A stretch of 64,000 nucleotides of DNA. Source: Escherichia coli. Lineage in GTDB: Bacteria; Pseudomonadota; Gammaproteobacteria; Enterobacterales; Enterobacteriaceae. Shown here piece after piece: positions 13,620 to 54,149 of this stretch; positions within the stretch are counted from its first letter, which is position 1, and every line of letters begins with the position of its first letter. A program made the position numbers and the translations under genes. The notes beneath the pieces were generated by a model. It saw nothing but the letters and a program-made list of their open reading frames with translations, was not told the origin of the DNA and searched no databases. Where the stretch lies: assembly GCF_003334305.1 (NCBI RefSeq), contig NZ_QOWS01000021.1. One strand, written 5' to 3'.

Positions 13620-14195
13620 CTACGGCAGTGCTGGCCATTCAATATCCTGTGCAGTTGACGTATCAACACGGTTCAGCAACACCCGATACTTTTTCCAGGC
13701 TTCCAGCAATGAGGTTTCTTCCTCCGTTGCGATTTCCAGATCTACAGCATCCTGAAGTGGCGCAATATGCTCACTGGCTACCTGCATCAGGCTGTTTTTT
13801 GTTTCTTCCGCCTCTCGGATCCGGAACAGTTTTTCTGCTTCTGCATCTTTCACCCAGGCTGTGCCGTTCCACTTCTGAAACTCCCCTTCCGGCGATAACC
13901 AGGTAACATTTTCCGGTAACGGACCGAGTTCAGAAATAAATAACGCGTCCCCTGACGCTACGTCATAAACCGTTTTACCCCGATGGTCTTCAACGAGATG
14001 CCACGATGCCTTATCACTGTTGAAAACAGCCACAAAGCCAGCAGGAATATCTGGTGGTGCAATATCGGTACTGTTTGCTGGCAGACCTGTATGAGGCGGA
14101 ATATATGCGTCACCTTCACCAATAAATTCATTAGTTCCGGCCAGCAGATTATAAATTTTTATGGTCCGTGGTTGTTCACTCATTCTGAATGCCAT
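13620..14195 (-). CDS. tfa: Tail fibre assembly protein Tfa, 191 aa
   Basis: Conserved Tfa C-terminal motif; immediately downstream of the side tail fibre gene. Confidence 0.85.
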
Positions 14196-42023: not shown

Positions 42024-42186
42024 GATTCCTCCTTGCTGCCAGTCGCAACCATTTTTTATCAACCAGGCTAGCGGTATATCCGAGCAGTGTTGGTATTTCG
42101 GATGGCTTCAGCTCAGGCTTACGCTTACGACGATTTGATACTCTGTAGATGTGCCCGTTCATGACACGAATAAGCGGTGTAGCCAT
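42016..42186 (-). CDS. ninE: NinE-like protein, 56 aa
   Basis: Manually translated ([56 protein letters not shown]); start overlaps the ybcN stop; coordinates approximate. Confidence 0.55.
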   Translation of the reverse strand: MATPLIRVMNGHIYRVSNRRKRKPELKPSEIPTLLGYTASLVDKKWLRLAARRNHG

Positions 42187-42641
42187 TACGCCTCCTGCTT
42201 ATCGCGCAGCTGCTGGTATTCACAGCTCTGCGGAATTGTCAGGTGGCAGCCGATATTCATCGCCCAGGCTTCGACTTTGCACAGGAAGATGTACATCTCG
42301 CCGGTTTCCAGCTCTGACGTATGGCGGAGGGATTGGACGGTGGTGACCTCGCCGGACACGACATCTACACGGTCTTTGCTTTCGTAGCCGAGATAGGTGT
42401 GCTTCATCGCGTCTTTGACCCACTCAGGCGTAGCGAAGGTCTTGCCGCGGGCGATGAGATATTCGCTGATCTCCGTGTACCACATGTGGCTGAGCGCGTT
42501 CTGCGACAGGCTGCGCTTCTCGCGCCACGGCTTAACCTGCAGGCGTAAGCATTGCCCGGCATCCAGCAATGGCTGAATCTGCTGGCCGATGGCCGCGAAG
42601 TTACCGCGATGGAGTTTGATGCCGTCTACTGGCAGAGTCAT
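42186..42641 (-). CDS. ybcN: YbcN-like nin-region protein, 151 aa
   Basis: Same size and position as DLP12 ybcN; function not assigned from sequence. Confidence 0.6.
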   Translation of the reverse strand: MTLPVDGIKLHRGNFAAIGQQIQPLLDAGQCLRLQVKPWREKRSLSQNALSHMWYTEISEYLIARGKTFATPEWVKDAMKHTYLGYESKDRVDVVSGEVTTVQSLRHTSELETGEMYIFLCKVEAWAMNIGCHLTIPQSCEYQQLRDKQEA

Positions 42642-42905: not shown

Positions 42906-43283
42906 ATGACCAACAAAGAAAACAAAGATAAATATATTAACAAGTTCAAGAAAGAGCTTTCAAAATATATACAACCAACTGCTGGAGTGGACATTCAATT
43001 ATTTAACTCTAAGGATGGTGGTGGTGTAATTAAAGCCACTTTGAATAGAAGTGGAAAAAGAAAATCATCTATTGCAGGTAATTTTACTAAATTAGGTGAG
43101 GCAATTACCTCGAGTGGGCAGAGGGTTTTTGGTGGTGATCTATCAAATGTAAATTTTTACGGAACAAATACGATTTTTGATGGAGATACAATATTTTTAA
43201 TTAAATCACCTGATTCAGAGGAGTGGTCATCACAAAAAGCTTCCAAAGACGTAGAGGGCATCGTATTTGGAGGGAAAAAATGA
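42906..43283 (+). CDS. Hypothetical small soluble protein, 125 aa (first gene of an AT-rich reverse-oriented cargo pair)
   Basis: ORF on the strand opposite to the flanking early genes; Lys/Gly-rich; no recognisable motif. Confidence 0.5.
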   Translation: MTNKENKDKYINKFKKELSKYIQPTAGVDIQLFNSKDGGGVIKATLNRSGKRKSSIAGNFTKLGEAITSSGQRVFGGDLSNVNFYGTNTIFDGDTIFLIKSPDSEEWSSQKASKDVEGIVFGGKK

Positions 43284-43708
43284 TTAACATTACTACTAAG
43301 GATGGCACTCAAGTCAGTGGTGAAGTAAGAGATCTAGTAATTCTTCTTGAAACTGATGGAAAAACGGTGTCTGATTATTTGCAGCCAATCCCTCCCAAAA
43401 AAGATACACACTGGAGCATGATTTTCATTCCGGTAGCAATTTATATACTACTTAATCTTGTATACATTATTGCTCACCCATTATTTCCTGAAAAATATCT
43501 AAAAACATCAACATCTATATTTCTATTCATTTCCTTCATATTAAGTGCAATAGTAGCATATTTTGTTTTCCATAAGCATAAATCTGCCACTCTATCCATA
43601 TGCAGCTTAGTGTTCTTAGTGTTAATTGTAGGTGCTAACGTAGGGTTTATCAGTTACAGCGACCTAACACAAAAAGCGACGCAAAAATTAGATAGTTTGT
43701 CTAAATAA
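43280..43708 (+). CDS. Hypothetical membrane protein with about 3 TM helices, 142 aa
   Basis: ATG preceded by GGAGGG; ATGA overlap with the upstream gene; three hydrophobic stretches of about 20 aa. Confidence 0.5.
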   Translation: MINITTKDGTQVSGEVRDLVILLETDGKTVSDYLQPIPPKKDTHWSMIFIPVAIYILLNLVYIIAHPLFPEKYLKTSTSIFLFISFILSAIVAYFVFHKHKSATLSICSLVFLVLIVGANVGFISYSDLTQKATQKLDSLSK

Positions 43709-43786: not shown

Positions 43787-44500
43787 TTATTCTTTATTAT
43801 CTTCTTTACCACTTCGCACCATCCCGTTCGACTTGTTGCGGTTGTACTTCGCCTGAAGCAGCTGGATTGGCGTCGGGCCATGCTCGGCAGCCGGTGCTGC
43901 AATCGCCCGGCGCACAGGCGGTACTGGTTTGCCCTCGGTGACGCGCCTCTCCCACATGTCCAGCAGATCGCCGGCTTCACGCGCCAGCTCACCATGCGTT
44001 AACTGGCGCTCTGTGCTGCGGTGGCGCAGTTCGACGCAGATGTGGTACATGACAGGCTGTGACCACGGGAAATGCTCGCTGGAAGTGAATTCGAAGGAAC
44101 GATTACGCCAATCCCAGTATTCGGTTATGACTTGGTCAACAGTGATACCTAACGCCCCGCCACTCTGCTTACACCACGCTACGAACTGGCCGGGCGACGG
44201 CAGGAATGGTCGCTCCTGTCGGCGGGCCACGCGCATTCCGGCGTTAACCTGTTCCATTGTGGTGATCCCGTTTTCCCGGAAAGCCAGAACCCACTGGCGG
44301 CGAATTTCGTTCAGTTCGTTCTGGTCACGGTTAGCCAGGCTCGCAGGGAAAGTTGCCAGCAACTGGCTGAATACACCGTTGATGATCTGCGCTACCTGCT
44401 GTACCTGCGGCTTTTCGTCGTACTGTTCCGGCATGTTGTTGGCGATCCGGCGCATCTGCTCACGGTCAAAGTTAACCATCTGTGCGGCGATGTTTTTCAT
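43787..44500 (-). CDS. P: Replication protein P (helicase loader), 237 aa
   Basis: N-terminal two-thirds match lambda P as recalled; the C-terminus diverges. Confidence 0.85.
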   Translation of the reverse strand: MKNIAAQMVNFDREQMRRIANNMPEQYDEKPQVQQVAQIINGVFSQLLATFPASLANRDQNELNEIRRQWVLAFRENGITTMEQVNAGMRVARRQERPFLPSPGQFVAWCKQSGGALGITVDQVITEYWDWRNRSFEFTSSEHFPWSQPVMYHICVELRHRSTERQLTHGELAREAGDLLDMWERRVTEGKPVPPVRRAIAAPAAEHGPTPIQLLQAKYNRNKSNGMVRSGKEDNKE

Positions 44501-45512: not shown

Positions 45513-46058
45513 TCATATTGCCCCCAACATGGTGGTAACCATCGCCATCAATGGACCAGCCAGATCCGGGTCCACACGAAACATCGACACAATACCTTCA
45601 CTCATCTCCTTCAGTTTCTGGTGGCGTGGTGCGTTGAGAATGACAGCCTGTTTTGCCTCACTGAGTTCCTTTTCCATTTCAGCCAACCGAGTCATGAAGC
45701 TATCCTGCTCAACCAGGTAACCGCGATATTCCAGCGGTAGTACCGCCAGAATTGCCGGGGTCAGTTCACGCACGTTATTTCGGTATTTTTCAGAATCGAA
45801 TTTGTTATCGAGGAAGCGGAACAGCTTCTGGCGTGCACGGCTGACATCATCAGGGAAATCGATGGTGCCGCCGCCCTGTGCTCGATACTCATTCACAATG
45901 AGTGCGGCAACAACATCCTGATTATCTGCAGCCGACCAGGCGCGGACGGCATCACGGATTTTTTCGTGGCCTGGCACCTGTTTTGTTTGAGAACGATTTA
46001 TCACCGCAGTCGGGCTAAATCCGCTAGTCTGTTGGTATGTAAGTGGTTGCATAGTCAT
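45513..46058 (-). CDS. YdaT-family protein in the cII position, 181 aa
   Basis: Similarity to Rac YdaT as recalled (EYRAQGGG…LTPAILAVLP vs EYLRQGGG…LIPAILAILP). Confidence 0.6.
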   Translation of the reverse strand: MTMQPLTYQQTSGFSPTAVINRSQTKQVPGHEKIRDAVRAWSAADNQDVVAALIVNEYRAQGGGTIDFPDDVSRARQKLFRFLDNKFDSEKYRNNVRELTPAILAVLPLEYRGYLVEQDSFMTRLAEMEKELSEAKQAVILNAPRHQKLKEMSEGIVSMFRVDPDLAGPLMAMVTTMLGAI

Positions 46059-46082
46059 TGCCTTATCAGTTAACGCCGCAGT

Positions 46083-46316
46083 TTAGGCGGCAGAATTACT
46101 CGCGTTAAACAATGGTGCGAGGTCGGGACGAATATCTGCTGGTTTAATCTTTCCACCAGTGGCTGAGACAATTTTCATTACATAGCGGGCATCAATTCCG
46201 CCACCGTGTAGCCAACGCCAAACTGTGGGTTGGGCTACACCGCATAGATCTGCCAGTCGTTTTTGACTACCTGTAATACTGATTGCGAGTTGAATGGTTT
46301 GATTTGTCATTATCAA
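46083..46316 (-). CDS. Cro/YdaS-like HTH regulator, 77 aa
   Basis: HTH (LADLCGVAQPTVWRW); divergent from the cI-like gene across an operator region. Confidence 0.7.
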   Translation of the reverse strand: MIMTNQTIQLAISITGSQKRLADLCGVAQPTVWRWLHGGGIDARYVMKIVSATGGKIKPADIRPDLAPLFNASNSAA

Positions 46317-46324
46317 TTCCTATT

Positions 46325-46380
46325 GGTATTGCAATGAATGAATAATAGCAATGAGTATTAACCCAAGCAATAGCAAAACG
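46325..46380. promoter_or_regulatory. OR-like operator/promoter region between the cro-like and cI-like genes
   Basis: Repeated atagcaat(g/a)agtatt-type motifs shared with the OL region; TATAAA about 9 nt upstream of the cI ATG suggests a leaderless PRM transcript; coordinates approximate. Confidence 0.5.
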
Positions 46381-46420
46381 TGTTTTGACCATCAATACGC
46401 AAGCGTATAAATTAAAACTT

Positions 46421-47113
46421 ATGAAAAAAGAAACTCTTGCTGATCGCTTAAATCTAGCGATGGAACAATCTGGAATGTCTCAAGGCGCTCTTGCAAAGGC
46501 GTCTGGCGTAGCTCAACCCACAATCTGGAGACTGACAAGCGGCAACGCGCGCGGCTCAACAAAAATTGTTGAAATAGCTAATGCATTGGGTGTTCGAACA
46601 GAATGGCTCTCTTCAGGCATAGGCCCGATGAGAAATGACGGTCAACAATCAGGGAAGCCTGCTGTCAGCCATTCCAAATACTTCAAAATTGACGTTCTTG
46701 ATATAGAAGTCAGTGCCGGGCCGGGTGTAATCAACCGTGAGTTTGTAGAAGTTCTACGCTCGGTTGAATACTCGTTTGACGATGCTCGTCACATGTTCGA
46801 TGGCAGGAAGGCGGAAAATATCCGCATCATTAACGTGCGTGGTGACAGCATGTCAGGAACGATCGAACCAGGTGATCTGCTGTTCGTTGATATCACGGTT
46901 AAATCTTTCGACGGTGATGGTATCTATGCGTTTCTGTATGACGACACCGCCCATGTAAAACGCCTGCAAATGATGAAGGATAAGCTGCTGGTTATCTCTG
47001 ATAACAAGAGCTACTCACCGTGGGACCCGATCGAGAAAGACGAGATGAACCGCGTGTTCATCTTCGGGAAAGTCATCGGGAGCATGCCGCAGACATATAG
47101 AAAGCATGGGTAG
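46421..47113 (+). CDS. cI: CI-type repressor (HTH + S24 LexA-like peptidase domain), 230 aa
   Basis: N-terminal HTH (MSQGALAKASGVAQPTIWRL) and C-terminal S24 region (VRGDSMSGTIEPGDLLFVD…KRL). Confidence 0.85.
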   Translation: MKKETLADRLNLAMEQSGMSQGALAKASGVAQPTIWRLTSGNARGSTKIVEIANALGVRTEWLSSGIGPMRNDGQQSGKPAVSHSKYFKIDVLDIEVSAGPGVINREFVEVLRSVEYSFDDARHMFDGRKAENIRIINVRGDSMSGTIEPGDLLFVDITVKSFDGDGIYAFLYDDTAHVKRLQMMKDKLLVISDNKSYSPWDPIEKDEMNRVFIFGKVIGSMPQTYRKHG

Positions 47114-47175
47114 AAATCAGAACAAAATTATGCACTTCGCTTTTCAGCTTACTGTAGTAAGGCAATAAATTAGGC

Positions 47176-47212
47176 TTGACGTTAGCTATCAGGTGCACAA
47201 CAATAATTGTTG
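47176..47212 (+). promoter_or_regulatory. Candidate promoter with a 15-bp perfect palindrome (caacaataattgttg) upstream of the HTH-peptidase gene
   Basis: TTGACG -35-like hexamer followed by the palindrome, 30-65 nt upstream of the 47243 start; coordinates approximate. Confidence 0.4.
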
Positions 47213-47242
47213 AATAATAGGTTTTTTTAACTAGGTGATAAC

Positions 47243-48382
47243 ATGGCAGCGGTTGAATTTCAATTGTCTAGGAAGATGATTGATTGGATAGCAAATTCTC
47301 AAGGAGTTTCTATCGAAACTCTTGCTGACCAAGTCATGCCCAAAAAGATTAATAAATTTCTTAACGGAGTGGTAAGTAAATCCGCAGCAGAAAAACTGGC
47401 AAAAATTGGAGGAATCCCTTTCGGTTTTTTATTTCTTGAAACGCCACCAACTCCAGCCAAACCCAAGATCCCTGACTTAAGGCAAGCTATAAATAGCCGT
47501 GAGTTAGGAAAAGATTTTTTTGATGTTTACTATGATATAGAATATAAACTTGAGTGGTACAAAGACTATTTAAGAGAAAATGGTAATGATGATCCACTCG
47601 ATTTTATTGGTAAATTTAAATTTAATAGAAAATTAAATTATAAGGTTGTTGCTACAGACATAGCAAACACAATACATTTTGATATACAAAAAGAGATAAA
47701 AAATGTCACTTTTGAGAGCTATTTTTCTAAAGTGGCAAAACTAATAGAAGACACTGGCGTATTAGTTTTCAAGAATGGTGTTGTGGGTAATAATAATAAA
47801 AGAAAACTTGACACGCGAGAGTTTCGTGGTTTCTGTATATCTGATAGCGTTGCTCCGATCATTTTTGTAAATAGCTCGGACGCGTTATCTGCGCAGGTAT
47901 TTACATTATTTCATGAGGTGGCTCATCTTTGGCTTGGAGTCGATGGAGTCTCTGGGTGGGACACAGAAAAAAACATAGAATCTTTTTGTAATAAAGTTGC
48001 TGCTGAAATCTTAATGCCTGATAATCTCTTCAAATCTTTCTGGCTTAATGCATCCAGCGATAATAATTATTATCGAGTAAAAGAGGTTTCTAAGTTATTT
48101 AAGGTTAGTGATTTCGCTTGTGCAATCAAAGCGTTACAATTAGATTTGATAGAAAGAAACACTTTGGAGATAATTAAAGATCAAGCTTACAATAAGCCCA
48201 AAAAAGAATCCAATGGTGGTTCTTTCTTTAACACATTACCTGTTCGTAACAGTCCAAAACTTACGAATATAATAATTTCCAAAGCAATGTCTCAACAATT
48301 ACCATTAAGGGAAGCAGGCGTACTGCTAAATGTAAAAGCAGATACAGTTGTTGAATTTTATAAAAAACGAGAATCTCTATGA
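47243..48382 (+). CDS. HTH-fused ImmA/IrrE-family (M78/DUF955-like) zinc metallopeptidase, 379 aa
   Basis: N-terminal XRE-like HTH; HEXXH motif (FHEVAHLW); AGGTGA SD; AT-rich; directly downstream of cI. Confidence 0.7.
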   Translation: MAAVEFQLSRKMIDWIANSQGVSIETLADQVMPKKINKFLNGVVSKSAAEKLAKIGGIPFGFLFLETPPTPAKPKIPDLRQAINSRELGKDFFDVYYDIEYKLEWYKDYLRENGNDDPLDFIGKFKFNRKLNYKVVATDIANTIHFDIQKEIKNVTFESYFSKVAKLIEDTGVLVFKNGVVGNNNKRKLDTREFRGFCISDSVAPIIFVNSSDALSAQVFTLFHEVAHLWLGVDGVSGWDTEKNIESFCNKVAAEILMPDNLFKSFWLNASSDNNYYRVKEVSKLFKVSDFACAIKALQLDLIERNTLEIIKDQAYNKPKKESNGGSFFNTLPVRNSPKLTNIIISKAMSQQLPLREAGVLLNVKADTVVEFYKKRESL

Positions 48383-48891
48383 TTCATAATGGAAAATTCT
48401 TAATTGATAGTAATGTCTTCATAGAGGCAAAAAACTTTGCATATAACTTCAATTATTGCAAAATATTTTGGGATTTTCTTCTCGCTTTACACATTAATGG
48501 TCTGATTTATAGCATTAATGCTGTAAAAAAAGAACTATGTGCAAAAGATGATCCATTGTGTAAATGGATTAAAGAAGAGTTACCATCATCATTCTTCGAA
48601 GATGAGCATAGTTCAATAGAAAATTATGCAAAGTTAATAAATTGGTCAACTAAATTAGATGTTACCGAAAAGGCAAAGTTTGATTTTGCAAGCCATGAAA
48701 AAGCAGATGCTTTTTTAATAGCCCATGCGATGACACATGGATATACTATTATTACCCATGAGAAACCATCCGGTGGCAAACCTAAAAAAAGAATAATGAT
48801 CCCGGATGCTGCTGCTTCTCACGGCGTTAAGACATTAACACTATATGAATTTCTTCCAAGATACGCTAGTCATAATTTTTCTTTGAAATAA
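48379..48891 (+). CDS. PIN-like (possibly DUF4411-family) putative nuclease/effector, 170 aa
   Basis: ATGA overlap with the upstream gene; N-terminal strand-Asp motif (FLIDSNVFIEA) typical of PIN folds; fold assignment is tentative. Confidence 0.5.
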   Translation: MIHNGKFLIDSNVFIEAKNFAYNFNYCKIFWDFLLALHINGLIYSINAVKKELCAKDDPLCKWIKEELPSSFFEDEHSSIENYAKLINWSTKLDVTEKAKFDFASHEKADAFLIAHAMTHGYTIITHEKPSGGKPKKRIMIPDAAASHGVKTLTLYEFLPRYASHNFSLK

Positions 48892-48896
48892 AACGT

Positions 48897-48923
48897 CCCG
48901 GCCACCGTGCCGGGTTTTCTTTT
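48897..48923 (+). terminator. Rho-independent terminator after the two-gene cassette
   Basis: cccggccaccgtgccggg followed by TTTTCTTTT. Confidence 0.75.
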
Positions 48924-49044
48924 GCCTCCCCTCATCACACACACCGTTCAAAAAACCACCACAACCCCGCTTCAGTTATCGCTATGCGATGCAAGTCACA
49001 AAATTAATTCTTTTTGCTATCAAATATTTAATATCAAAACACAT

Positions 49045-49092
49045 CTAGCAATAGCAATAAGTATTGATATCATCAATAGCAATAGCTATTAT
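49045..49092. promoter_or_regulatory. OL-like operator region (pL)
   Basis: tagcaatagcaataagtattg and atcaatagcaatagctattatc repeat the motif seen in the OR region; coordinates approximate. Confidence 0.45.
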
Positions 49093-49198
49093 CACCATGT
49101 CGCAACAACACAACGATACGGCAATCACCTGATTCACCGTTGCGATGACCGCTTAGATCCGCAGCTTGAATTTCAGCAGGCTCCGGGGAGTGCGAGGG

Positions 49199-49576
49199 GT
49201 GAAGCGGACGCGTGAACGTCGGTGTGACCAGCTGAAATCAACTCAACACTTCATACCTCAGTCGCTTCAACGAGGCGGCTTAGTTATGACAACCGGCGGC
49301 CATCCACCGCCTGAATACGCGCAGAAGTCTTTATATGTTCAGCAGCCCAGCTTACGGGCAGGAGTTTTTATGGTTCATCAACATTACGGAACGCAGACCG
49401 TTAATCGCGGTGCGGTCATGCCAGGAATGCTGGTCAAACACAAAGATGGTACCTGGACTGCATCAGCTAATTTACGCGGACGGCTTTATCTGCATCGCGG
49501 CATCGAGCGCACTTATACCCGTGATTTGCTCGTAGAAGTTTTTCTCGACGGACGCGGTAACGGCCTGAATCACTAA
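49199..49576 (+). CDS. Possible N-like antitermination protein with an arginine-rich motif (GTG start)
   Basis: First gene after the OL region; KRTRERR at the N-terminus resembles N-protein ARMs; no other similarity recognised. Confidence 0.3.
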   Translation: MKRTRERRCDQLKSTQHFIPQSLQRGGLVMTTGGHPPPEYAQKSLYVQQPSLRAGVFMVHQHYGTQTVNRGAVMPGMLVKHKDGTWTASANLRGRLYLHRGIERTYTRDLLVEVFLDGRGNGLNH

Positions 49577-52695: not shown

Positions 52696-53038
52696 GGCCT
52701 GTCAGTTTCTTAAGATATCCAGACCAACCGCCACCAACTGGATACGAACAGGCCGCCTACAGGCAACACGTAAAGATCCAACCAAGCCAAAATCTCCTTA
52801 CCTCACAACACGGCAAGCCTGCATTGCGGCGCTTCAGTCTCCGCTGCATACTGTCCAGGTGAGCGCGGGTGATGGCATAACAGAGGAAAGAAAATGTCAC
52901 TCTTCCGCAGAAATGAAATATGGTATGCCTCGTATTCGCTCCCGGGCGGGAAACGAATTAAGGAATCTCTTGGCACAAAGGACAAGCGGCAAGCTCAGGA
53001 GTTGCACGACAAGCGAAAAGCAGAACTCTGGCGAGTAG
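52667..53038 (+). CDS. xis: Putative excisionase (Xis-like HTH protein); overlaps the int start
   Basis: ORF 52637-53038; internal Met [31 protein letters not shown] has an HTH; lies immediately upstream of int. Confidence 0.45.
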
Positions 53039-54057
53039 AAAAGCTAGGGGATTTACCTGATGTCACTTTTGAAGAGGCCTGCCTAAGATGGCTTGAGGAA
53101 AAAGCTGATAAAAAATCTCTCGATTCAGATAAAAGCCGGATTGAGTTCTGGCTTGAACATTTTGAGGGTATAAGGCTTAAAGATATCTCGGAGGCAAAGA
53201 TTTACTCTGCTGTAAGCAGAATGCATAACAGAAAGACGAAAGAAATATGGAAACAGAAAGTTCAGGCCGCCATCAGGAAAGGTAAAGAACTGCCTGTTTA
53301 TGAACCAAAGCCAGTATCAACTCAGACAAAGGCAAAGCATCTTGCCATGATAAAGGCCATTCTCCGTGCTGCAGAACGCGACTGGAAGTGGCTGGAAAAA
53401 GCGCCTGTCATCAAGATACCAGCGGTCAGAAACAAGCGAGTCAGATGGCTGGAAAAGGAGGAAGCAAAACGCCTTATTGATGAGTGCCCCGAACCACTGA
53501 AATCTGTCGTCAAGTTTGCGCTGGCAACTGGTCTGAGAAAGTCGAACATCATAAATCTGGAATGGCAACAAATCGACATGCAGCGACGAGTTGCCTGGGT
53601 GAATCCAGAAGAGAGCAAATCAAACCGCGCCATTGGTGTGGCGCTGAACGATACCGCCTGTAAAGTGTTGCGTGATCAAATAGGCAAGCATCACAAATGG
53701 GTGTTTGTACATACCAAGGCGGCTAAGCGAGCAGATGGAACATCAACGCCTGCGGTCAGGAAGATGCGCATCGACAGCAAGACATCATGGCTATCAGCTT
53801 GTCGTCGTGCAGGAATTGAAGATTTCCGTTTCCATGACCTCAGACACACCTGGGCAAGCTGGCTGATTCAGTCAGGCGTCCCATTATCAGTGCTTCAGGA
53901 AATGGGCGGATGGGAGTCCATAGAAATGGTTCGTAGGTATGCTCACCTTGCGCCTAATCATTTGACAGAGCATGCGAGGAAAATAGACGACATTTTTGGT
54001 GATAATGTCCCAAATATGTCCCACTCTGGAATTATGGAGGATATAAAGAAGGCGTAA
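52894..54057 (+). CDS. intD: Tyrosine integrase (IntD-like), 387 aa
   Basis: Matches DLP12 integrase as recalled; C-terminal catalytic region (…[15 protein letters not shown]…RYAHL); adjacent to tRNA-Arg. Confidence 0.9.
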
Positions 54058-54072
54058 CTGATTGAATTGTAA

Positions 54073-54117
54073 TGGCGCGCCCTGCAGGATTCGAACCTGC
54101 GGCCCACGACTTAGAAG
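54073..54117. repeat. attR core (3' 45 nt of argU), identical to 7529-7573
   Basis: Direct repeat seen in sequence. Confidence 0.85.
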
Positions 54118-54149
54118 GTCGTTGCTCTATCCAACTGAGCTAAGGGCGC
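54073..54149 (-). tRNA. argU: tRNA-Arg (anticodon UCU), argU; prophage attachment site
   Basis: Reverse complement reads GCGCCCTTAGCTCAGTTGGATAGAGCAACGACCTTCTAAGTCGTGGGCCGCAGGTTCGAATCCTGCAGGGCGCGCCA (77 nt, cloverleaf-compatible, CCA end); coordinates approximate. Confidence 0.9.

What the first reader, a model, noticed from the sequence alone, without database searches (positions are those of the whole stretch)
47243..48891. Candidate defence / toxin-antitoxin cassette in the rexAB-equivalent position: HTH-ImmA metallopeptidase plus PIN-like protein
Immediately downstream of the cI-like repressor and co-oriented with it (the position lambda uses for rexAB) lie two translationally coupled genes (ATGA overlap at 48379-48382). 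They are markedly AT-rich (about 27% GC in one 60-nt stretch I counted by hand, against a visibly GC-richer prophage backbone) and are closed by a clean intrinsic terminator (48897-48923) just before the OL region. Gene 1 is an XRE-like HTH fused to an ImmA/IrrE-type peptidase with an HEVAH zinc motif. Gene 2 (170 aa) begins with a PIN-like strand-Asp motif. An HTH-M78 peptidase partnered with a small putative effector is the architecture of RosmerTA-like defence modules and of predicted Xre/COG2856 three-domain toxin-antitoxin systems, but I cannot assign this specific pair to any characterised system from sequence alone. A lysogen would express it constitutively alongside cI.
Basis: partly seen in the sequence, partly recalled or inferred. 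Interest (0 to 1): 0.88.

Follow-up and report, generated by a model that had tools for sequence, protein, structure and literature searches.

The report
Prophage peptidase–PIN nuclease candidate defence cassette
A two-gene cassette acquired from elsewhere (a DNA-binding zinc peptidase plus a PIN-type nuclease) sits right after the repressor gene of an E. coli lambdoid prophage, in a slot where related prophages carry other anti-phage genes; it is most likely a toxin-antitoxin-style phage-defence module of a kind already predicted but not functionally tested in anything I could find.

Summary
ORF1 (47243-48382, 379 aa) is an M78/ImmA-IrrE zinc peptidase with an invariant HExxH…E site. ORF2 (48379-48891, 170 aa) is a DUF4411 PIN-fold protein with four invariant acidic residues. 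The genes overlap by ATGA. The cassette has 33% GC against 50% around it.

New findings:
- In 149 of 159 other loci from many phyla, a full-length ORF1 homologue lies directly upstream of the DUF4411 gene, usually overlapping it. The pair is an obligate module.
- The cassette carries its own conserved promoter.
- The terminator belongs to the prophage backbone, not to the cassette.
- The cI-to-kil slot is hypervariable. The same cI occurs in 716 of 5426 E. coli genomes, but only 33 carry this pair. Others carry SIR2, PD-T4-6-type kinase, HipA-like and other cargos.
- Elsewhere the pair again follows prophage repressors (46 loci) or sits inside type I restriction-modification operons (about 20 loci).
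- PDB 9VZY holds chains of a distant HTH-M78 homologue and a DUF4411 protein, presumably a complex.

Verdict: a Rosmer-like toxin-antitoxin or abortive-infection candidate. The architecture was predicted in 2017. It is a new member of a known kind, and its defence function is untested.

The parts
47114..48896 (+). Whole acquired cassette (promoter, gene 1, gene 2), inserted between the cI stop codon and the backbone terminator
   Evidence: Homology with 716 E. coli genomes carrying the same cI stops at the cI stop codon, 47109-47114. Homology with lambdoid phages and other prophages resumes at 48896/48897. GC is 0.334 against 0.49-0.50 in the flanks.
47176..47204 (+). Cassette's own sigma70-type promoter: -35 TTGACG (47176-47181), 17-nt spacer, -10 AACAAT (47199-47204)
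   Evidence: Promoter scan, 9/12 match. TTGAC and AAnAnT are invariant, with the same spacing, in 10 cassettes from different genera whose surrounding DNA is otherwise poorly conserved (alignment A3).
47198..47212 (.). Perfect palindrome CAACAAT-A-ATTGTTG overlapping the -10 element; candidate operator for autoregulation by the N-terminal HTH-like domain (tentative)
   Evidence: An ACAAT-N2-3-ATTGT palindrome at the same place is seen in only some related cassettes (L002, L090), not all.
47233..47238 (+). Shine-Dalgarno AGGTGA of gene 1
   Evidence: GGTG is invariant in alignment A3.
47243..48382 (+). Gene 1: 379-aa multi-domain protein. N-terminal 5-helix HTH-like domain (res 1-64). Conserved linker with invariant D78 and R80 and near-invariant P77 (P-D-L-R-Q in this protein, res 77-81). 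Helical domain (res 90-169). M78 zinc peptidase core (res 169-291). Helical C-terminal region.
   Evidence: Pfam Peptidase_M78, E 3e-13. PHROG 2439, E 3e-76, full length. AF2 pLDDT 88.9. Foldseek top hits are CapP 7t5t and IrrE 3dti/3dte. PDB 9VZY_A matches the profile at 10-333, E 4e-22.
47912..47926 (+). HEVAH zinc-binding/catalytic motif (H224, E225, H228); the third ligand E246 lies downstream
   Evidence: H224, E225, H228 and E246 are invariant in 40 homologues of 36-82% identity.
48379..48382 (+). ATGA start/stop overlap (translational coupling)
   Evidence: Among 159 other loci the overlap is -4 in 68, -1 in 49 and -8 in 13.
48379..48891 (+). Gene 2: 170-aa DUF4411 PIN-fold nuclease (putative toxin/effector); acidic tetrad D10, E52, D110, E128
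   Evidence: Pfam DUF4411, E 1.5e-37. AF2 pLDDT 89.7. Foldseek top hits are VapC toxins, prob 1.0, TM 0.5-0.66. The four acidic residues are invariant in two alignments, down to 29% identity.
48897..48925 (+). Intrinsic terminator (CCCGGC-CACCGT-GCCGGG + TTTTCTTTT); a backbone element marking the right edge of the slot, not cassette-specific
   Evidence: The same sequence follows HipA_2+DUF3037 cargo (L174) and DUF6932 cargo (L176, L177), and occurs in lambdoid phage records.
49040..49100 (+). Context: OL/PL-like region (operator-like AATAGCAAT repeats; promoter-like TTGATA-17-TATTAT at 49064-49092 reading into kil-gam-bet-exo)
46421..47113 (+). Context: cI-type repressor (HTH + S24 autopeptidase), co-oriented and immediately upstream

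Best explanation
The cassette is a mobile two-gene, toxin-antitoxin-like conflict module. It is carried as a 'moron' (an added gene cassette not needed for phage growth) in the hypervariable slot between cI and PL of a lambdoid prophage. Its most likely role is to protect the lysogen against other phages by abortive infection.

Shown:
- Gene 2 is a PIN-fold protein with an intact, invariant four-acid active site.
- Gene 1 is a large protein with a catalytically intact M78 zinc peptidase.
- The two genes are almost always adjacent, in the same order, and translationally coupled across many phyla.
- The cassette has its own conserved promoter.
- The slot and the other recurrent contexts are defence-rich.
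- One PDB entry (9VZY) holds chains of distant homologues of both proteins.

Inferred:
- Gene 1 binds and silences the nuclease.
- Gene 1 represses the promoter through its N-terminal HTH-like domain at the palindrome overlapping the -10.
- Infection or a DNA-damage-type signal switches the peptidase, as in ImmA, IrrE and CapP. This leads to cleavage or loss of the inhibitor, possibly at the conserved post-HTH linker, and frees the PIN nuclease to cut RNA and stop growth of the infected cell.
- In a lysogen the cassette is transcribed from its own promoter and probably also by read-through from PRM, because no terminator is predicted between cI and gene 1.
For: - Domain and fold assignments.
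- Invariant catalytic residues.
- Obligate linkage: 149 of 159 loci have a full-length gene-1 homologue upstream, and 130 of 159 overlap by 1-8 nt.
- PDB 9VZY contains 3 chains of an HTH-M78 homologue and 6 chains of a DUF4411 protein.
- Own promoter conserved in 10 cassettes, with a palindrome over the -10.
- Slot hypervariability: the same cI is in 716 of 5426 genomes and the pair in 33. Alternative cargos match PDC-S25/ThsA-like SIR2, PD-T4-6/mad6 kinase, PDC-M11A/B, and HipA_2+DUF3037.
- The pair also follows a prophage repressor in 46 loci, including Klebsiella and Enterobacter Rac-like prophages with unrelated repressors.
- It lies next to hsdS, hsdM or hsdR in about 19-23 loci.
- Foreign composition.
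- Prior in-silico prediction of HTH-DUF955+DUF4411 as a three-component TA (PMC5499597). The ImmA-domain antitoxin hub is enriched in defence systems and linked to PIN-like toxins (PMC10440598). RosmerTA has been validated as defence (bioRxiv 10.1101/2022.05.11.491447).
Against: - There is no experimental evidence for toxicity, neutralisation or phage protection for this pair or any DUF4411 pair in the searched literature. Only 4 papers mention DUF4411.
- Gene 2 matches no PADLOC v2 model. Gene 1 matches RmrA models only weakly: 17-30 bits (E 6e-8 to 8e-4), mostly over the peptidase core.
- In two E. coli genomes IS1 splits gene 1 while gene 2 stays intact. Loss of full-length gene 1 is therefore tolerated. 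Possible reasons are polarity on gene 2, neutralisation by the C-terminal fragment, or a nuclease that is not toxic without a trigger.
- No Pfam HTH hit.
- The operator palindrome is not conserved in all relatives.
- 'Guilt by association' in hotspots is suggestive, not proof.
Confidence: 0.6

Rival explanations
1. Pure addiction or stabilisation module. The pair is a classical type II TA whose only role is to penalise loss of the prophage or cassette (post-segregational killing). It has no phage-defence activity.
For: TA-like architecture: coupled genes, a PIN toxin, and an upstream DNA-binding partner with a palindrome at its promoter. It travels on mobile elements, with 80 IMG/VR loci.
Against: Its recurrent placement in a slot that otherwise holds defence cargos, and inside type I R-M operons, is more typical of defence. 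The strictly conserved peptidase active site suggests signal-dependent activation rather than passive antitoxin decay. Natural IS1 disruption of gene 1 is tolerated.
Confidence: 0.15
2. CapH/CapP-like damage-responsive switch without direct toxin neutralisation. Gene 1 is a self-cleaving repressor-protease that keeps the PIN nuclease transcriptionally off. It turns the nuclease on upon DNA damage or prophage induction. The nuclease then serves the phage's own lytic programme (host or competitor nucleic-acid degradation), or serves defence purely through transcriptional induction.
For: Best PADLOC and Foldseek matches of gene 1 are CapP and IrrE. A palindrome overlaps the -10. The pair is immediately adjacent to SOS-responsive S24 repressors in 46 loci.
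Against: A PDB entry containing both homologous proteins (9VZY) points to a direct protein-protein complex. Translational coupling gives fixed stoichiometry, typical of TA pairs. In many genomes the pair is not in a prophage at all but in R-M operons.
Confidence: 0.15
3. ImmA-type anti-repressor. The M78 peptidase cleaves the prophage repressor to trigger induction, as ImmA does to ImmR, and the PIN protein is an accessory.
For: M78 peptidases next to repressors are the ImmR/ImmA pattern. In Klebsiella and Enterobacter the neighbouring repressors lack an S24 domain.
Against: Here cI has its own S24 autopeptidase domain. The identical cI works in hundreds of genomes without the pair. The peptidase's constant partner across phyla is DUF4411, not a repressor, including in non-prophage R-M contexts.
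Confidence: 0.04

Closest known systems
Predicted HTH-DUF955(COG2856)/DUF4411.1 three-component TA (Matelska et al. 2017, PMC5499597) and the solved complex PDB 9VZY/9VZZ
   Same: Same domain pair, same gene order (HTH-M78 fusion upstream of DUF4411). The profile of gene-1 homologues matches 9VZY_A (E 4e-22) and the profile of gene-2 homologues matches 9VZY_D (E 1e-13).
   Different: The solved proteins are distant: phmmer gives only E 8e-7 and 7e-6 to the window proteins. I found no publication describing their function. The 2017 prediction is purely in silico.
RosmerTA (RmrT/RmrA; Millman 2022; Ernits 2023)
   Same: Two-gene module. The antitoxin combines an N-terminal HTH-type domain with an ImmA/M78 zinc peptidase. 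The toxin partner is variable. It is found on phages and in defence contexts. PADLOC RmrA models hit gene 1 (E 6e-8 to 8e-4).
   Different: RmrA hits are weak (17-30 bits) and mostly limited to the peptidase core. Gene 2 hits no PADLOC model at all, RmrT models included. The one Rosmer toxin whose mechanism is described in what I read depolarises the membrane (PMC10440598), whereas this effector is a PIN nuclease.
VapBC (PIN toxin / small DNA-binding antitoxin)
   Same: PIN fold and acidic tetrad. The top structural matches are VapC toxins. The antitoxin-first, overlapping gene arrangement is shared.
   Different: The upstream partner is a 379-aa peptidase-containing protein, not a roughly 80-aa VapB. 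DUF4411 is a separate PIN family: Pfam PIN_3 scores only E 3.2.
CapH/CapP, ImmR/ImmA, DdrO/IrrE repressor-protease switches
   Same: M78 peptidase fold; the best structural hits are CapP 7t5t and IrrE 3dti. An HTH partner and association with defence systems or mobile-element regulation.
   Different: Here the HTH-like domain and the protease are fused in one polypeptide. The constant partner is a nuclease encoded in the same operon rather than a separately regulated system.
Lambda rexAB and other cargos of the cI-PL slot (e.g. PD-T4-6-type kinase, SIR2)
   Same: Same genomic position and orientation, downstream of cI and before OL/PL. Presumed expression in the lysogen and presumed superinfection-exclusion role.
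   Different: No sequence or fold relationship to RexA/RexB. The cassette has its own promoter.

Membership tests
HTH-M78 + DUF4411 module (Matelska 2017 class; PDB 9VZY) | Downstream gene encodes a DUF4411 (PF14367) PIN-like protein with conserved acidic residues | tested here: met
   Pfam E 1.5e-37. D10, E52, D110 and E128 are invariant. 9VZY_D matches the family profile at E 1e-13.
HTH-M78 + DUF4411 module (Matelska 2017 class; PDB 9VZY) | Upstream, co-transcribed gene encodes a fused HTH + DUF955/M78 peptidase | tested here: met
   M78 E 3e-13. Full-length homology to the partner gene in 149 of 159 loci. 9VZY_A matches the profile at E 4e-22. The HTH part is supported only indirectly.
RosmerTA | Antitoxin matches RmrA models (HTH + M78 peptidase) | tested here: inconclusive
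   Twelve RmrA models hit at E 6e-8 to 8e-4, 17-30 bits. Two alignments span residues 20-314; most cover only the peptidase core.
RosmerTA | Toxin matches an RmrT model | tested here: not met
   No PADLOC family at E <= 0.1 for gene 2.
RosmerTA | Toxin is toxic, antitoxin neutralises it, and the system protects against phage | not testable with these tools
   Requires expression and plaque assays.
VapBC type II TA | PIN-domain toxin with four conserved acidic residues | tested here: met
   Foldseek VapC hits with prob 1.0 and TM up to 0.66. Invariant tetrad.
VapBC type II TA | Small VapB antitoxin (AbrB/RHH/Phd-type DNA-binding domain plus toxin-binding tail) | tested here: not met
   The partner is a 379-aa M78 peptidase protein.
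ImmR/ImmA (and CapH/CapP, DdrO/IrrE) switch | Separate HTH repressor cleaved by a stand-alone M78 protease | tested here: not met
   The HTH-like domain and the peptidase are in one ORF. The neighbouring cI has its own S24 domain.
ImmR/ImmA (and CapH/CapP, DdrO/IrrE) switch | M78 fold with HExxH...E zinc site | tested here: met
Lambda RexAB | Homology to RexA/RexB | tested here: not met
   PHROG, Pfam, NCBIfam and PADLOC hits are to unrelated families. Only the position is shared.

The most novel reading that the evidence does not exclude
The HTH-M78/DUF4411 pair would be a widespread, still unnamed anti-phage system. In this reading the fused peptidase is the sensor. On detecting an infection or DNA-damage signal it cleaves itself, for example at the invariant post-HTH linker (D78/R80, P-D-L-R-Q here). 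That single cut would both derepress the operon and release a pre-bound PIN nuclease. Its strong preference for the position right behind prophage repressors (46 loci) would then reflect functional coupling to the lysogenic state or SOS signalling, not just a convenient insertion site.
Probability: 0.2. Interest if true: 0.7.

Novelty: new member of a known kind. Interest (0 to 1): 0.45.

Why it matters
If the cassette protects against phages, it adds a PIN-nuclease branch to the ImmA/Rosmer-type defence systems. That branch is large: 5,373 clusters at 50% identity at E <= 0.001 and 2,629 at E <= 1e-10. It is currently invisible to PADLOC v2 because gene 2 matches no model.

It also documents that the cI-PL ('rexAB') slot of a very common E. 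coli prophage immunity type is a swap site for defence cargo (same cI in 716 of 5426 complete genomes). That makes the slot a practical place to mine for further systems.

The conserved, apparently active peptidase fused to the putative antitoxin offers a tractable model for how M78 proteases convert an infection signal into toxin release.

Tried and rejected
- **Second operator inside cI.** A second copy of the palindrome (CAACAA-N3-TTGTTG at 46557-46571, inside cI) looked like a second operator. It is present in every cI allele whether or not the cassette is there. Two matches arise in 5 of 100 shuffles. I treat it as coincidence.
- **Pfam HTH detection in gene 1.** No HTH family in any of 40 family members.
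- **PADLOC and NCBIfam for gene 2.** No hits.
- **Isolated phage genomes (INPHARED).** DNA search found only the backbone terminator stretch. Protein search found one metagenomic phage at 27% identity. The pair is therefore seen in prophages, not in sequenced isolates.
- **Literature.** DUF4411 appears in 4 papers, none experimental on this pair. Searches for ImmA+PIN+defence, COG2856 and the PDB codes found no functional study. The E. coli CRISPRi essentiality paper describes a different toxin-antitoxin pair.
- **Rfam.** No RNA family in or near the cassette.
- **Antisense ORFs and promoter-like sites inside the AT-rich genes.** The number of promoter-like hits (12) is within the shuffle expectation of 9.0 +/- 3.1.
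- **Anti-repressor reading.** Rejected as the main explanation, because the identical cI functions without the pair in hundreds of genomes.
Full report
**Observation**

They overlap by ATGA at 48379-48382. They follow, in the same orientation, a cI-type repressor (46421-47113) that has an HTH and an S24 autopeptidase domain.

The stretch 47114-48896 has GC 0.334 and third-codon-position GC of 0.24-0.26. The window as a whole is 0.50, and cI, bet and exo have GC3 of 0.50-0.61.

A strong intrinsic terminator (6 G-C pairs plus a T-run) starts at 48897. It is followed by operator-like repeats shared with the OR side (49050-49098 against 46344-46392, 73% identity). A promoter-like site at 49064-49092 reads into kil-gam-bet-exo. 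This is the lambda rexAB-equivalent position.

**Gene 1**

- Pfam finds Peptidase_M78 at residues 169-291, E 3e-13.
- PHROG 2439 matches over the full length, E 3e-76.
- In 40 homologues of 36-82% identity, H224, E225, H228 (the HEVAH motif, nt 47912-47926) and the third zinc ligand E246 are invariant. Selection is therefore maintaining an active peptidase.
- The AlphaFold model (pLDDT 88.9) best matches CapP (7t5t, E 2e-4) and IrrE (3dti/3dte).

The N-terminal 64 residues fold as five short helices.
- No Pfam HTH family hits any of the 40 proteins.
- Foldseek similarity to XRE-type C-proteins is only local (TM 0.5-0.57, E > 1).

Support for the HTH comes from three indirect results:
- The window's cI HTH matches positions 6-67 of the PHROG 2439 profile, E 1e-7.
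- RmrA alignments reach residue 20.
- The solved homologue 9VZY_A is named 'HTH cro/C1-type domain-containing protein' and aligns to profile positions 10-333, E 4e-22.

A linker after this domain carries invariant D78 and R80 (P-D-L-R-Q here) in a lower-confidence segment.

**Gene 2**

- Pfam DUF4411, E 1.5e-37.
- AlphaFold pLDDT 89.7.
- The top Foldseek hits are all VapC PIN toxins (probability 1.0, TM up to 0.66, E about 2e-3).
- D10, E52, D110 and E128 are invariant among close relatives. Together with W31 they are the only invariant columns among 40 cluster representatives of 29-51% identity. This is the PIN acidic tetrad, so the protein is very probably an active metal-dependent nuclease.
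- The family has 5,373 clusters at 50% identity at E <= 0.001 (2,629 at E <= 1e-10) among 1.84 billion representatives.

**The pair is an obligate module**

I collected 79 loci from GTDB species genomes (Proteobacteria, Actinobacteria, Chloroflexi, Bacteroidetes, Planctomycetes, Acidobacteria, Cyanobacteria, Leptospira and others). I also collected 80 loci from IMG/VR viral contigs.

- In 149 of 159 loci a full-length homologue of gene 1 lies on the same strand directly upstream of the DUF4411 gene.
- The exceptions are mostly cut by contig ends.
- The junction overlaps by 4 nt in 68 loci, 1 nt in 49 and 8 nt in 13.

The PDB holds an entry, 9VZY, with three chains of a distant gene-1 homologue and six chains of a DUF4411 protein. 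A second entry, 9VZZ, holds the DUF4411 protein alone. This indicates that the two proteins form a physical complex. I found no paper for these entries.

**Boundaries and expression**

The same cI (95-98% DNA identity) occurs in 716 of 5426 complete E. coli genomes. Homology ends exactly at its stop codon. The complete cassette occurs in 33 genomes.

On the right, homology to lambdoid phages and to other prophages resumes at 48896/48897. The same terminator follows unrelated cargos in L174, L176 and L177. The terminator is therefore backbone, not cassette.

The cassette brings its own promoter. TTGAC(G/C), a 17-nt spacer, AAnAnT and the GGTG Shine-Dalgarno are invariant in ten cassettes from different genera amid otherwise divergent DNA.

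A perfect palindrome, CAACAAT-A-ATTGTTG (47198-47212), overlaps the -10. Comparable palindromes occur in some but not all relatives, so the operator assignment is tentative. No terminator is predicted between cI and gene 1, so PRM read-through is also plausible.

**Context argues for a conflict or defence role**

Behind the same or identical cI, other genomes carry different cargos in this slot:
- a SIR2 protein matching PADLOC PDC-S25 and ThsA
- a small protein plus a Ser/Thr kinase matching PD-T4-6 and mad6
- N-acetyltransferase plus ASCH, matching PDC-M11A/B
- HipA_2 plus DUF3037
- DUF6932 plus a 310-aa protein
- several unannotated one- or two-gene cargos

Homologous pairs at 53-72% identity in Klebsiella and Enterobacter sit in the same relative position of Rac-like prophages. 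Those prophages have unrelated repressors that lack an S24 domain.

Across all loci, an S24 cI-like repressor is the first or second upstream co-oriented gene in 46 loci, 41 of them viral. hsdS, hsdM and hsdR neighbours occur in 23, 19 and 19 loci, mostly chromosomal. There the pair is embedded in type I restriction-modification operons.

**What is known**

- Matelska et al. 2017 (PMC5499597) predicted from gene neighbourhoods that DUF4411.1 proteins are toxins of three-component systems with HTH and DUF955 protease domains.
- Ernits et al. 2023 (PMC10440598) place an ImmA-protease antitoxin hub (Rosmer zone) in a defence-enriched part of the TA network and note its association with PIN-like domains.
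- Millman et al. 2022 (bioRxiv 10.1101/2022.05.11.491447) validated RosmerTA as a defence system.
- RefSeq already annotates the two genes as 'ImmA/IrrE family metallo-endopeptidase' and 'DUF4411 family protein'.
- I found no experimental study of this pair.
- By PADLOC v2 models it is not a RosmerTA member. RmrA hits are weak, and gene 2 matches no PADLOC model, RmrT models included.

**Mechanism**

Best-supported reading (confidence about 0.6): this is a TA-like abortive-infection module. The PIN nuclease is made together with, and held inactive by, the gene-1 protein, which also represses the cassette promoter. A phage- or damage-derived signal acts through the conserved peptidase, removes the inhibition, and the nuclease arrests the infected cell.

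Direct binding is suggested by 9VZY and by translational coupling. The trigger, the role of proteolysis, the RNA target and the phage specificity are inferred by analogy with ImmA, IrrE, CapP and VapC.

The main counter-observation is that IS1 splits gene 1 near codon 189 in two ETEC genomes while gene 2 stays intact. This could reflect polarity, neutralisation by the C-terminal fragment, or a nuclease that is harmless without a trigger.

Rivals are an addiction-only TA, a CapH/CapP-like purely transcriptional switch, and an ImmA-type anti-repressor. The last is unlikely, because the identical cI works without the pair in hundreds of genomes.

**Verdict**

It is not categorically new. The architecture was predicted in 2017, is annotated, and a homologous complex has been solved. 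The specific demonstration of anti-phage function, and the recognition of the cI-kil slot of this common prophage type as a cargo swap site, would be useful but incremental.

Noticed in passing
window 47114-48896 slot; loci L161-L165, L173-L182: The cI-to-kil slot of this prophage immunity type is a hypervariable cargo site. With the same or identical cI it carries SIR2 (PDC-S25), a small protein plus PD-T4-6-type kinase, NAT+ASCH (PDC-M11), HipA_2+DUF3037, DUF6932+310 aa, and several unannotated cargos. A full census of the 716 genomes was not done.
   Followed up: partly
window 42906-43708 (+), between the P-like replication gene (43787-44500, -) and the ybcN-like gene (42186-42641, -): A second low-GC (0.33-0.36) two-ORF insert, 125 aa plus a roughly 142-aa protein with long hydrophobic stretches (possibly membrane). 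It is oriented against its neighbours and has no PADLOC hit. In related prophages the same position holds SIR2_2, HEPN, PRTase-CE+NADAR, DUF4145 or Pua-like+Metallophos genes, so it looks like a second cargo hotspot.
   Followed up: partly
L172 (E. coli ATCC 43886; also E2528-C1), equivalent to about window 47800: IS1 is inserted in gene 1 near codon 189, separating the N-terminal half from the peptidase half. The DUF4411 gene is intact and identical. This is a natural test of whether full-length gene 1 is essential.
   Followed up: partly
window 52894-54057 (+) and 54073-54149 (-): An integrase-sized ORF (387 aa, by position; identity not tested) abuts tRNA-Arg(TCT), so this prophage probably sits at that tRNA-Arg gene. 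The identical immunity region and cassette in strain CV839-06 (L001) is in a prophage integrated next to icd. The immunity module is shared by mosaic prophages with different integration modules.
   Followed up: no
window 49100-49576: No N-like antiterminator ORF lies between the PL-like promoter (49064-49092) and kil (49370-49576). There is only an extended ORF (49166-49576) in the kil frame with an Arg-rich N-terminus. Rfam finds no RNA family here. How early-left antitermination works in this phage is unclear.
   Followed up: no
window 46557-46571: CAACAAAAATTGTTG inside cI closely resembles the cassette's promoter palindrome (18 of 20 nt with flanks). It is present in all cI alleles regardless of cargo, so it is probably coincidental.
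   Followed up: yes
window 13654-13852 (-): Full-length match to Rfam RF02111 (IS009 RNA), 226.7 bits.
   Followed up: no
window 45513-46316 (-): The cro position is occupied by a YdaS-type HTH gene (46083-46316), followed by a YdaT-domain gene (45513-46058). Both carry 'toxin' family names, but here they are the conserved early-right genes of the immunity region.
   Followed up: no
PDB 9VZY / 9VZZ: Solved structures of a distant HTH-M78 protein together with a DUF4411 protein exist in the PDB sequence copy. They were not returned by the Foldseek PDB library (entries to April 2026), and no paper mentions them in the searched library.
   Followed up: partly
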